Part shown: positions 24,764 to 26,266 of the stretch, piece after piece | Layout: each line of letters opens with the position of its first letter | How positions within the stretch are numbered: position 1 is the first letter of the stretch | NCBI GenBank assembly: GCA_016185945.1 | Contig: JACPMR010000011.1 | Coordinates: 633 to 64,632, forward strand | Direction: 5' to 3' | DNA length: 64,000 nt | Source: Candidatus Woesearchaeota archaeon | Lineage (GTDB): Archaea; Nanobdellota; Nanobdellia; Woesearchaeales; GW2011-AR4 | Program-made: the position numbers and the translations under genes | The notes under the pieces: generated by a model | Database searches by the model: none | Told to the model about the DNA's origin: nothing | Seen by the model: only the letters and a program-made list of their open reading frames with translations

Positions 24764-26266
24764 CTAACCCTTCACATTCCCCACGGGCTTCAATCCAACA
24801 ACAGGCATAGAAATTCCCGCCTCTGCAACCGCATTTATTACATCATTAATATTTTTGTATGCAAAACCAGCTTCTTCAGCCAACCCCGACATTGAGATTG
24901 CTTTCACGTAAATCCCTCTTTTCTCCATGTCTCTCTGCAACTGCTCGCCTCTGACTTGCCTTTTTGCAGCAGCCCTTGACATTGTACGTCCGCTCCCATG
25001 TGCCGTACTCCCGAAAGTCTCGTCCATTGCCTTTTGGGTTCCGACAAGCAAGAAACTTCCAGTTTCCATTGAGCCTCCTATTATTACAGGCTGCCCTGTT
25101 TCCTTGTAAAGTTTTGCAAGTTCAGGATGATGCGGGGGAAATGCCCGTGTGCTTCCTTTTCTGTGCACAACAACCTTTTTTTTGTGCCCGTCAATAACAT
25201 GCTCTTCAAGCTTTGCAATGTTATGCGCGACATCATAAACCATGTGCATCTCCAATTTTTCTGCTTCTGTCTTGAAAACTTTTGAGAATCCTTCCCTTAT
25301 CCTGTGCAAAATAACTTGCCTGTTAGCAAATGCCATATTGGCTGCGCACGCCATTGCCTTGTAATAATCCTGCCCTTCATTGCTCTGGAATGGAGCGCAT
25401 GCAAGCTCCCTGTCATAAACTTCAATGCCGTATTTTTTCATTGTTCCTTCAAAAATTCTTAAGTAGTCAGTCCCAATCTGATGCCCGAATCCTCTGGAGC
25501 CGCAATGCACCATAATAACAACCTGCTCTGGCTGGGTAATTCCAAATTTTTTTGCAAGTTCTTCGTCAAAAATGTTTTCTGCCTTTACAATCTGTATCTC
25601 AAGATAATGGTTGCCAGAGCCCAAAGTTCCTAATTGTTTAATCCCTCTTTCCATTGCCTTTGAGCTTACTTTCTCCGGCTCAGCCCAGTCAATCCTGCCA
25701 TAGCCTTCAGTTCTTTCCAAATCCTCTGTCCAGCCATAGCTGTTTTCAATACACCATTTTGAGCCATATGTCATTATTTCCTTGAATTGCGATCTGCTTG
25801 CATCCACAAATCCTCTTGAGCCGACACCGGCAGGAACTGTCCTGAACAAAGTGTCAACTAATTCCCTTAATTTTGGCTGTACTTCTTTGTAGGTTAGATT
25901 TGTTGTAACAAGGCGCATGCCGCAGTTGATATCAAACCCGACTAAGGTTTAAATTCCTCCGGGTGATATCACGCCAGTCTCAGCGTCAAAAGCTGCAACG
26001 CCGCCAATGGGAAAACCGTCAAGGGCTGAATAAGAGTTTTTACTTACTCAGAATCCCCAGTGCCCATCTGGCATGCAGAATGCATATTTCTGGATTCCTG
26101 GCAAACAAGCTACATTTGTTACCTGATTAAATACACCTTCATCCATTTCCCTAAGAAGTTTTTCGGTTGCATAAATACGTGCAGGAACAAGCATACCTTT
26201 CTTATAGCTCATAGGTATTTCCCACACAGTTTTATCTACCCGCTTCATAGGTGGAAGCTCTGCCAT
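24764..26266 (-). CDS. rtcB: RNA-splicing ligase RtcB. Frame interrupted by two small in-frame insertions, each introducing a stop codon (TGA at 26048..26050, TAA at 25949..25951). ORF-track fragments 26048..26266 and 24764..25918 are one frame.
   Basis: MPDGHWGF[[10 protein letters not shown]][22 protein letters not shown][*TLV][10 protein letters not shown]... is colinear with the archaeal RtcB consensus once the bracketed 33-nt and 12-nt segments are removed. Confidence 0.85.

What the first reader, a model, noticed from the sequence alone, without database searches (positions are those of the whole stretch)
25940..26050. rtcB (tRNA-splicing ligase) carries two in-frame micro-insertions with stop codons: candidate BHB mRNA introns, or a pseudogene
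The RtcB reading frame is continuous from 26266 to 24764 and colinear with the archaeal RtcB consensus (MPDGH(Q/W)G(Y/F)[11 protein letters not shown]...GVISPGG(I/V)G(F/Y)DINCG), except for two extra segments. The first is 33 nt (about 26018..26050, tgagtaagtaaaaactcttattcagcccttgac), starting with TGA. The second is 12 nt (about 25940..25951, taaaccttagtc), starting with TAA. Both lengths are multiples of 3, and removing each restores the conserved motifs exactly. Each segment can form a local hairpin (tgagtaag/cttattca; aaacc/ggttt). The same genome holds tRNA genes with 3 to 4 non-canonical introns, implying a relaxed-specificity splicing endonuclease; archaea with such enzymes are known to splice at least one mRNA (cbf5). 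Archease, the RtcB cofactor, sits 2.5 kb away. A spliced intron in the ligase's own mRNA would be a new self-referential arrangement. The alternatives are a recent pseudogene or assembly errors.
Basis: partly seen in the sequence, partly recalled or inferred. Interest (0 to 1): 0.85.

Follow-up and report, generated by a model that had tools for sequence, protein, structure and literature searches.

The report
Two tRNA-type mini-introns inside rtcB
The gene for the archaeal RNA-splicing ligase RtcB is interrupted by two tiny (33- and 12-base) introns of the kind normally found in tRNA genes, so the cell probably needs its splicing endonuclease and RtcB itself to make a readable rtcB message; about half of its close relatives carry the same or similar introns.

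Summary
rtcB (26266..24764, minus strand) is one continuous frame broken by two stop-containing extra segments.

Both segments fold as relaxed bulge-helix-bulge (BHB) motifs. The canonical cut, between bulge nucleotides 2 and 3, falls exactly on the junctions defined by homology. It restores HWG-Y-GFPIGG and GGIGFDINCG.

Of 56 distinct close alleles (Woesearchaeota/Nanoarchaeota MAGs and metagenomes), 27 carry mini-introns, at four sites within 90 nt:
- type A, 30/31/33 nt
- type B, 33 nt
- type C, 12 nt
- type D, 32 nt

The 31- and 32-nt versions shift the frame, so they must be removed. After removal every allele checked is an intact ORF. dN/dS is 0.03-0.09 with saturated dS. Helices show compensatory changes. 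These results reject a pseudogene and an assembly error.

A tRNA-Phe with three BHB introns lies 4 kb away, and archease lies 1.4 kb downstream.

No RNA data were available, so splicing is inferred, not shown. No report of BHB introns in rtcB was found; cbf5 is the only described case in a protein-coding gene. I rate it a new variant of a known kind.

The parts
24764..26266 (-). rtcB gene (three exons and two mini-introns; stop codon 24766..24764)
   Evidence: One continuous frame with two internal stops. The spliced 485-aa product matches Pfam RtcB PF01139 over 1-426/426 at 577.7 bits. It aligns without gaps across both junctions to P. horikoshii RtcB 1uc2 at 613 bits.
26053..26266 (-). exon 1 (CDS nt 1-214, aa 1-71 plus the first base of Tyr72)
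   Evidence: The boundary is fixed by intron-less alleles reading GGGGAT|ACGG and by pairwise alignment placing the insertion at CDS nt 214.
26020..26052 (-). intron A, 33 nt (ucugaguaaguaaaaacucuuauucagcccuug), relaxed BHB. The 5' bulge is A-U|U (26054-26052). The central helix is GGGG/CCCU (26058-26055 with 26025-26022). The inner hairpin is 9 bp (26051-26043 with 26034-26026). The 3' bulge is U-G|A(C) (26021-26018). The outer helix is 26061-26059 with 26017-26015, extended by 26068-26063 with 26011-26006. An in-frame TGA lies at 26050-26048.
   Evidence: Minimum-free-energy fold, z = -2.9. BHB register check. Across 8 aligned type-A sequences, 99.4% of cells are paired and one pair shows compensatory change. 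The 33-nt pattern occurs nowhere else in the window. Thirteen related loci carry type A at the same site, in 30/31/33-nt forms.
25954..26019 (-). exon 2 (66 nt, aa 72-93/94: (Y)[21 protein letters not shown](I))
25942..25953 (-). intron C, 12 nt (uuuaaaccuuag), hBH/bulge-helix-loop type. The outer helix is ACCCG/CGGGU (25964-25960 with 25940-25936). The central helix is GAGG/CCUU (25959-25956 with 25947-25944). The 3' bulge is A-G|U (25943-25941). The 5' cut A-A|U (25955-25953) lies at the edge of the 8-nt loop. An in-frame TAA lies at 25951-25949.
   Evidence: Minimum-free-energy fold, z = -2.3. BHB register check: central helix 4/4, outer helix 5 bp. Null rate 20/127,896. The identical 12 nt sit at the same site in L004 and L126, although synonymous sites elsewhere are saturated.
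24764..25941 (-). exon 3 (aa 94-485 plus stop). It holds D97 and C100 of the DINCG motif and the His motifs.
   Evidence: Gene callers report only this part, as a 384-aa product, in relatives.
22933..23409 (-). archease, the RtcB cofactor, 1.35 kb downstream on the same strand
   Evidence: Pfam PF01951, 140.6 bits, 1-136/136. The same rtcB-ZIP-archease gene order appears in L161 and L163.
29817..29990 (+). tRNA-Phe(GAA) gene with three BHB-type introns: 29838-29873 (36 nt, D-loop), 29881-29902 (22 nt, position 27/28) and 29913-29953 (41 nt, position 37/38). It shows that this genome relies on endonuclease/ligase splicing at non-canonical sites.
   Evidence: Missed by default ARAGORN and by Rfam. 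BHB checks give central helices of 4/4, 4/4 and 3/4. After removal, default ARAGORN calls a perfect 75-nt tRNA-Phe.

Best explanation
The two segments are archaeal endonuclease-type (BHB) introns in the rtcB pre-mRNA.

Shown here:
- The pre-mRNA around each segment folds into a relaxed BHB.
- The canonical cut, between the 2nd and 3rd nucleotide of each bulge, coincides exactly with the exon junctions defined by intron-less alleles.
- Removal gives an intact, conserved 485-aa RtcB with all catalytic motifs.
- Homologous introns in relatives include frame-shifting lengths.
- The interrupted genes are under strong purifying selection.

Inferred:
- The tRNA-splicing endonuclease EndA cuts both sites, leaving 2',3'-cyclic phosphate and 5'-OH ends.
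- RtcB, helped by the archease encoded just downstream, ligates the three exons.
- Unspliced mRNA yields only a 72-aa peptide, because each intron has an in-frame stop within its first codons.
- Synthesis of the ligase therefore depends on pre-existing ligase (an autocatalytic loop inherited through the cytoplasm) and on the same enzymes that process this genome's multi-intron tRNAs.

The introns behave as gain/loss-polymorphic, probably mobile, elements clustered in the segment that encodes the active site.
For: 1. Frame and stops.
2. BHB folds are the minimum-free-energy structures.
3. The cut rule, stated in PMC2738675, reproduces GGGGAU|ACGG and GGAA|UCGG when applied. These are the sequences of intron-less alleles.
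4. Null rates are 1.6e-4 (C-like pattern) and about 8e-6 (A-like pattern) per fixed site.
5. Relatives: 27 of 56 distinct alleles carry mini-introns at four sites. A31 and D32 change the tblastn frame at aa 72/73 and 98/99. Type D is a perfect hBHBh' motif.
6. After intron removal the intron-bearing alleles checked read as open frames, about 465 codons from CDS nt 60.
7. dN/dS is 0.03-0.09 with dS above 1.
8. Compensatory changes: type B has 3 pairs and 0/500 shuffles reach the observed score. Type A has 1 pair. The type D inner hairpin is re-written between L030 and L118.
9. The introns are far more conserved than synonymous sites, and exon bases that pair in the BHB are fixed only in intron-bearing alleles.
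10. The same introns occur in independent assemblies from several projects.
11. This window holds a three-intron tRNA-Phe and archease.
12. DPANN archaea are reported to have loop-bearing EndAs associated with disrupted tRNA genes (PMC5829648).
Against: - There is no RNA evidence: no cDNA or metatranscriptome read across a junction.
- EndA was not found in the 64-kb window, though that search used a sequence recalled from memory. Its type in this genome is unknown.
- Intron A is not canonical. Its 3' bulge is 4 nt, or the central helix is 3 bp, depending on register.
- Intron C has no inner helix.
- Type B has a weak outer helix. All three need a broad-specificity enzyme.
- The whole genome could not be searched for a second, intact rtcB.
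- An autocatalytic requirement for RtcB looks risky and has no demonstrated benefit.
Confidence: 0.85

Rival explanations
1. Decaying pseudogene: the two segments are recent junk insertions that killed this rtcB copy, and an intact copy elsewhere does the work.
For: Both segments carry in-frame stops. The rest of the genome cannot be searched.
Against: The same insertions occur in many species whose synonymous sites are saturated, yet dN/dS is 0.03-0.09. No other stop or frameshift appears in any intron-bearing allele checked once the introns are removed. All catalytic motifs are intact. No second copy lies in the window.
Confidence: 0.03
2. Assembly or sequencing artefact: small chimeric insertions.
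For: The window is probably a metagenome-assembled sequence.
Against: Identical or homologous insertions sit at the same nucleotide in independent assemblies from different studies and sites (RIFCSP, NC_groundwater, Hainich, several JGI projects). They vary in structure-preserving ways.
Confidence: 0.01
3. Translational bypassing or recoding: ribosomes hop over the segments, as in phage T4 gene 60 (own knowledge), triggered by the stop codon and hairpin just after a take-off codon. No RNA cutting is involved.
For: Each segment has a stop within its first codons (from the 1st in C to the 6th in D) and a hairpin. Hopping is indifferent to segment length, so the 31/32-nt variants do not exclude it.
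Against: No matching take-off and landing codon pair reproduces the conserved G-Y-G-F-P or G-I-G-F-D sequence (reading). The pairing that is conserved and covaries includes exon-intron helices placed exactly as in a BHB, at four unrelated introns. The organism demonstrably uses BHB splicing.
Confidence: 0.04
4. The segments are removed from RNA, but by something other than EndA and RtcB, such as another nuclease/ligase pair or a ribozyme-like reaction.
For: Introns A, B and C deviate from the strict BHB. EndA was not seen in the window.
Against: The segments are far too small (12-33 nt) for group I or II ribozymes. The cut positions obey the BHB rule at all four sites. Relaxed hBH/HBh' motifs are known substrates of broad-specificity EndAs (PMC4090602; PMC5829648).
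Confidence: 0.05

Closest known systems
BHB introns in the cbf5 (pseudouridine synthase) gene of Crenarchaeota (Watanabe 2002; Yokobori 2009, PMC2738675)
   Same: A protein-coding mRNA is interrupted by a short intron with a relaxed BHB. The cut falls between bulge nucleotides 2 and 3. Distribution among related species is patchy (gain and loss). The host enzyme acts on RNA.
   Different: The host gene differs: here it is the ligase that must seal the cut. The lineage differs: DPANN (Woesearchaeota/Nanoarchaeota) rather than Crenarchaeota. There are two introns per gene and four insertion sites within 90 nt. One intron is only 12 nt. Presence/absence polymorphism reaches alleles that are 99-100% identical over the 3' 1.2 kb of the gene (L073/L110). 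cbf5 splicing was verified by cDNA; this case is not.
Non-canonical and multiple BHB introns of archaeal tRNA genes (hBH, HBh' motifs; intron transposition in Thermoproteales; PMC4090602)
   Same: The motif architecture and cut rule are the same. The introns are very short. A three-intron tRNA-Phe in the same window shows the machinery is in use. There is evidence of recent spread among loci.
   Different: The substrate is an mRNA, where the reading frame, stop codons and coupling to translation all matter. I saw no sequence similarity between the rtcB introns and the tRNA-Phe introns of the window (by eye only).
Unconventional cytoplasmic splicing of XBP1/HAC1 mRNA (IRE1 cut; RtcB or Trl1 ligation; abstracts listed)
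   Same: A short intron is excised from an mRNA by a protein endonuclease at stem-loop sites. In metazoa, RtcB ligates the resulting 2',3'-cyclic phosphate and 5'-OH ends. Removal changes which protein is made.
   Different: The endonuclease differs (IRE1, not EndA), as does the recognition motif. XBP1 splicing is a regulated stress switch in eukaryotes, and the spliced mRNA there does not encode the ligase.
Inteins in rtcB (found here in L116/L117; I recall an intein in P. horikoshii RtcB, PH1602, which I did not check)
   Same: Another removable parasitic element lies in the same active-site-coding stretch. The L116 intein is inserted at N99|C100, 4 nt from the type-D intron site.
   Different: It is removed at the protein level, is about 500 aa long and carries a LAGLIDADG endonuclease. 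The window's segments are removed, by inference, at the RNA level and encode nothing.

Membership tests
Archaeal BHB (splicing-endonuclease) introns | Splice sites lie in two roughly 3-nt bulges on opposite strands, separated by a 4-bp helix (hBHBh'), or in the accepted relaxed forms hBH / HBh' / bulge-helix-loop. | tested here: met
   Intron A: 3-nt 5' bulge, 4-bp helix GGGG/CCCU, 4-nt 3' bulge, inner helix of 9 bp and outer helix of 3+6 bp. Intron C: outer helix 5 bp, central helix 4 bp, 3-nt 3' bulge, 5' site in the loop (relaxed form). Type D in relatives is a strict hBHBh'.
Archaeal BHB (splicing-endonuclease) introns | Cleavage between the 2nd and 3rd bulge nucleotides gives the true exon junction. 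| tested here: met
   The rule is quoted from PMC2738675. The predicted junctions GGGGAU|ACGG and GGAA|UCGG equal the intron-less alleles. Removal restores the frame, including for the 31/32-nt variants.
Archaeal BHB (splicing-endonuclease) introns | The structure is maintained by selection (compensatory substitutions). | tested here: met
   Type B: 3 compensatory pairs, 98.6% of cells paired, 0/500 shuffles. Type A: 1 compensatory pair, 99.4% paired, though variation is low. Type D: hairpin re-written between L030 and L118. Type C: three identical copies, so no covariation can be measured.
Archaeal BHB (splicing-endonuclease) introns | Cleavage by EndA giving 2',3'-cyclic phosphate and 5'-OH ends, and ligation by RtcB; the spliced RNA is observed. 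| not testable with these tools
   No RNA data and no enzyme assay were available.
Archaeal BHB (splicing-endonuclease) introns | The host genome encodes a broad-specificity EndA able to cut relaxed motifs. | tested here: inconclusive
   No EndA hit in the 64-kb window, using a query recalled from memory. Indirect support: a tRNA-Phe with three introns at positions 20/21, 27/28 and 37/38 in the window. PMC5829648 reports loop-bearing EndAs in DPANN associated with more tRNA gene disruption.
RtcB RNA ligase (PF01139) | Full-length match to the family, with the metal-binding and GMP-binding residues (Asp/Cys of DINCG and four His motifs). | tested here: met
   The spliced product matches PF01139 over 1-426/426 at 577.7 bits. 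It aligns gap-free to 1uc2, with DINCG, GSGNH, CGSRGFGH, DVAHN and STAHG present.
Programmed translational bypass (T4 gene 60 type) | Matched take-off and landing codons flank the gap, with a stop codon after take-off. | tested here: not met
   Stops are present, but no matched codon pair reproduces the conserved protein sequence (read).

The most novel reading that the evidence does not exclude
The rtcB mini-introns may be actively mobile elements that home into the active-site-coding stretch of the ligase gene, not passive relics. Four unrelated introns and an intein cluster within about 90 nt. Types A and B, 8 nt apart, never co-occur. Alleles that are 99-100% identical over the 3' 1.2 kb differ by the presence of an intron and by a diverged 5' flank, which looks like a co-conversion tract. 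One genome keeps a truncated rtcB copy that ends within 2-3 nt of the type-A splice site.

If so, spread may go through reverse ligation by RtcB itself or through a DNA break at the site. Occupancy could protect the site from the intein's homing endonuclease. The result is a self-referential circuit in which the ligase must splice its own message.
Probability: 0.3. Interest if true: 0.88.

Novelty: new variant of a known kind. Interest (0 to 1): 0.78.

Why it matters
In the literature I could search, cbf5 is the only protein-coding gene described as having an archaeal endonuclease-type intron. If confirmed, this case would:
- add a second host gene, in a different superphylum (DPANN);
- show that one mRNA can carry several such introns, one as short as 12 nt;
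- provide a natural series of presence/absence alleles in which to study how BHB introns are gained, lost and moved, which is still unknown (PMC4090602).

The host gene is the ligase that has to seal the cuts. That creates an autocatalytic dependency: no RtcB, no new RtcB. This has not been described and is directly testable.

There is also a practical consequence. Gene callers split these genes into 72/76-aa and 384-aa products, so rtcB looks truncated or missing in many DPANN genome annotations and completeness estimates. The tRNA-Phe is likewise missed by standard tools.

Tried and rejected
- Default ARAGORN and Rfam (gathering and E-value modes) found no tRNA in the window. Only ARAGORN with intron mode gave a mis-parsed 'tRNA-Leu', which I re-parsed by hand as a three-intron tRNA-Phe.
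- A brute-force search for combinations of tRNA introns, scored with a permissive ARAGORN threshold, was useless: 544 'tRNAs'.
- A strict hBHBh' scan of the whole window gave 2338 hits against about 2060 in shuffled sequence. Its 'ORF-rescue' hits were mostly boundaries between adjacent genes, so it cannot find other intron-bearing genes.
- A Pfam screen of 30 further ORFs at suspicious overlapping or adjacent positions found no other split protein gene. The MFS-like ORF after gatC is a separate small gene, not a split one.
- No EndA and no second rtcB were found in the window.
- The exact-sequence look-up of the 384-aa ORF found nothing, so the window's own contig is not in that collection.
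- L161-L165, fetched through the 384-aa gene calls, turned out to carry type B only and added no new copy of intron C.
- I considered in-frame insertion with stop read-through, Sec or Pyl. The 31/32-nt variants shift the frame, which rules it out.
- L109, L111 and L026 were misaligned in the dN/dS and tree scripts and should be ignored.
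Full report
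**1. The observation**

On the minus strand, 26266..24764 translates as a single frame of 501 codons with exactly two internal stops...[53 protein letters not shown].... ORF listing shows the consequence: a 72-aa ORF (26266..26048) and a 384-aa ORF (25918..24764).

With both removed, the 485-aa product matches Pfam RtcB end to end (1-426/426, 577.7 bits). It aligns without a gap across both junctions to P. horikoshii RtcB (PDB 1uc2, 613 bits). The DINCG, GSGNH, CGSRGFGH, DVAHN and STAHG motifs are all present.

**2. Where the boundaries are**

A scan of one genome per species and of JGI/ENA metagenomes with the spliced protein returned 160 loci. The closest, at 74-93% aa identity, are Woesearchaeota/Nanoarchaeota MAGs and groundwater or sediment contigs.

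Many sister alleles have no insertion and read ...CAYTGGGGNTAYGG... and ...GGNGGNATHGGNTTYGA.... Placed against the window, the first segment can only be tctgag...cccttg (26052..26020). The junction is GGGGAT|ACGG and encodes Tyr, as every intron-less relative does.

The second segment is tttaaaccttag (25953..25942). An equivalent 1-nt slide gives the same product.

**3. Structure**

The minimum-free-energy folds of the two regions have BHB topology, with z-scores of -2.9 and -2.3 against shuffles.

[quoted passage not shown] I applied it at the junctions defined by homology.
- Intron A: 5' bulge A-U|U; central helix GGGG/CCCU (4/4); a 9-bp inner hairpin; 3' bulge U-G|A followed by an extra C, which makes it a 4-nt bulge or, in another register, leaves a 3-bp central helix; then outer pairs UCA/UGG and GAUGGG/CCCAUU.
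- Intron C: outer helix ACCCG/CGGGU; central helix GAGG/CCUU (4/4); 3' bulge A-G|U; the 5' cut A-A|U lies at the edge of an 8-nt loop. This is the relaxed hBH or bulge-helix-loop form, as described for non-canonical tRNA introns (PMC4090602; PMC5829648).

With the sites fixed in advance, the chance of such pairing is low. The C-like pattern occurs at 20 of 127,896 positions in the window. The A-like pattern occurs only at the real site.

**4. Relatives**

Pairwise alignment of all close loci to the spliced CDS shows four insertion sites within 90 nt.

| Type | CDS position | Length | Carried by |
|---|---|---|---|
| A | nt 214 | 30, 31 or 33 nt | the window plus 13 loci |
| B | nt 206, 8 nt upstream of A | 33 nt | 18 loci |
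| C | nt 280 | 12 nt | the window, L004 and L126; identical sequence |
| D | nt 293 | 32 nt | L030, L118, L122, L123 |

After de-duplication, 27 of 56 distinct alleles carry at least one intron. A and B never occur together.

The 31-nt A and 32-nt D versions shift the tblastn reading frame exactly at aa 72/73 and 98/99. They cannot be tolerated as translated insertions. Type D is a textbook hBHBh': central helix UGAC/GUCA, bulges A-U|U and C-G|U, a 4-bp outer helix and an inner helix of at least 5 bp. Type B has a perfect 5' bulge between a 5-bp inner helix and a 3-bp central helix, and a weak outer helix, which is the HBh' type.

**5. Evidence of function and selection**

After intron removal, the intron-bearing alleles checked read as open frames with no premature stop, about 465 codons from CDS nt 60. 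Between intron-bearing genes dN/dS is 0.03-0.09 while dS is above 1. The genes have therefore stayed under strong purifying selection for as long as these lineages have diverged.

The helices are maintained.
- Type B: 98.6% of cells are paired, 3 pairs show compensatory changes, and 0 of 500 shuffles reach the observed covariation.
- Type A: 99.4% are paired, with one G-C to A-U compensatory pair, although variation is low.
- Type D: the inner hairpin is re-written between L030 and L118 with pairing kept.

The non-coding introns, and the exon bases that pair with them, are much more conserved than synonymous sites elsewhere. Examples are CCC GGA GGA A|UC GGG UUU GAU AUC, and CCC instead of the usual CCA. 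These exon bases are fixed only in alleles that carry the intron. All four intron types have an in-frame stop within their first six codons, so unspliced RNA can only give a truncated peptide.

**6. Context in the window**

Archease, the RtcB cofactor, is at 22933..23409 on the same strand (PF01951). The order rtcB-ZIP transporter-archease is conserved in relatives. RtcB and archease are described as a 'tRNA splicing operon' in PMC4604427 (abstract).

The 174-nt locus 29817..29990 is invisible to default ARAGORN and to Rfam. It becomes a perfect tRNA-Phe(GAA) after removing three introns, at 29838-29873, 29881-29902 and 29913-29953. Their central helices pair 4/4, 4/4 and 3/4 under the same cut rule. 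The organism therefore relies on endonuclease/ligase splicing at non-canonical sites.

No EndA gene and no second rtcB were found in the window. The EndA query was recalled from memory, so that negative result is weak.

**7. Mechanism**

Shown: motif, junctions, frame restoration, conservation and covariation.

Inferred: EndA cuts four phosphodiesters, at 26053|26052, 26020|26019, 25954|25953 and 25942|25941. This would leave 2',3'-cyclic phosphate and 5'-OH ends, which is established knowledge of the enzyme family. RtcB with archease would then join the three exons. RtcB joins exactly such ends (PMC4604427 abstract).

New RtcB can then be made only if RtcB already exists. That is an autocatalytic loop, carried through cell division by inherited protein. 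I cannot say whether it is exploited for regulation or merely tolerated. The polymorphism argues for tolerated, selfish or neutral elements.

**8. Signs of mobility (weaker inference)**

In a neighbour-joining tree of the 3' two-thirds of the protein, the A, B and intron-less alleles are interspersed. L073 (A31) and L110 (no intron) are 99-100% identical from about nt 240 onward but diverge sharply 5' of it. That pattern suggests recombination or co-conversion at the intron.

The window's identity to L004 and L126 peaks locally around intron C. L020 keeps a truncated second rtcB 5' copy that ends within 2-3 nt of the type-A splice site. L116 and L117 carry a LAGLIDADG intein at N99|C100, 4 nt from the D site. 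The active-site-coding stretch is therefore a hot spot for removable elements.

**9. Rivals**

- Pseudogene and assembly error are rejected by sections 4 and 5, and by the recurrence of the introns in independent assemblies.
- Read-through, Sec or Pyl decoding is excluded by the frame-shifting variants.
- Translational bypass cannot be excluded by length. It lacks matched take-off and landing codons, and it does not explain exon-intron helices in exact BHB register at four unrelated introns.
- A different nuclease or ligase remains possible but is unsupported.

**10. Comparison with what is known, and novelty**

Full-text searches for BHB introns in protein-coding genes, rtcB introns, and DPANN or Woesearchaeota introns returned only the cbf5 work, as primary papers and as citations in 2018-2025 papers on EndA. 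The Haloferax EndA substrate survey (PMC7714728) also appeared in those searches, but I did not read it.

This is the same kind of element as the cbf5 intron and as non-canonical tRNA introns. It differs in several ways:
- the host gene is the ligase itself;
- the lineage is DPANN;
- there are two introns per gene and four sites per clade;
- the smallest intron is 12 nt;
- the introns are polymorphic among very close relatives.

I rate it a new variant of a known kind. Confidence that these are spliced BHB introns is 0.85. The missing piece is RNA or enzymatic evidence.

Noticed in passing
window 29817-29990 (+): A tRNA-Phe(GAA) gene with three BHB-type introns (36 nt in the D-loop, 22 nt at 27/28, 41 nt at 37/38). 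Default ARAGORN and Rfam miss it, and ARAGORN intron mode mis-calls it as tRNA-Leu.
   Followed up: yes
window 30040-30240: An intergenic stretch just downstream of the tRNA-Phe, with GC-richer, structured-looking sequence (for example gcgacccaatatccgcacactgaattgggtgccccgcag). No Rfam match. It could be another disrupted RNA gene.
   Followed up: no
L116 1-1560 and L117 (Ga0209541 contigs): rtcB relatives carry an in-frame intein of about 500 aa (Intein_splicing plus LAGLIDADG_3) inserted at N99|C100 of DINCG, 4 nt downstream of the type-D mini-intron site.
   Followed up: partly
L020 230-480 (DATDZA010000049.1); also L042 2219-2353: A second, truncated 5' copy of rtcB with its own RBS and start codon. 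In L020 it ends at ...CATTGGGG|TTTAAT, within 2-3 nt of the type-A 5' splice site, and is followed by an unrelated lipoprotein-like ORF.
   Followed up: partly
L138 1-1700 (Ga0209399_10003332): The rtcB homolog (86% identity) begins only at aa 115. The 1.5 kb upstream holds unrelated ORFs. It is either a truncated gene or a split gene whose 5' part lies elsewhere.
   Followed up: partly
L073 versus L110; window versus L004/L126 (rtcB nt 180-300): Mosaic identity. L073 (intron A) and L110 (no intron) are 99-100% identical 3' of nt ~240 but diverged 5' of it. The window shows a local identity peak with L004 and L126 around intron C. This suggests recombination or co-conversion tied to the introns.
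   Followed up: partly
window 49640-53567 (+): In the gatC-gatA-gatB cluster, a half-size MFS-like ORF (49926-50519, 198 aa) is wedged between gatC and gatA and overlaps both.
   Followed up: partly
window 62641-63245 (+): Two overlapping ORFs in different frames. The second has a weak LAGLIDADG_3 match (E = 0.002). It may be a degraded or frame-broken homing endonuclease gene.
   Followed up: no
window 24156-24699 (-): Two small overlapping ORFs lie between rtcB and the ZIP transporter. One has a sub-threshold DUF4258 match, which suggests a toxin-antitoxin-like pair inserted into the rtcB-archease neighbourhood.
   Followed up: no
P0088, P0092 and loci L161-L165: Public gene calls split intron-bearing rtcB genes into a 72- or 76-aa product with no Pfam hit on record and a 384-aa 'RtcB' product. 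Annotation therefore under-reports full-length RtcB in these lineages.
   Followed up: yes
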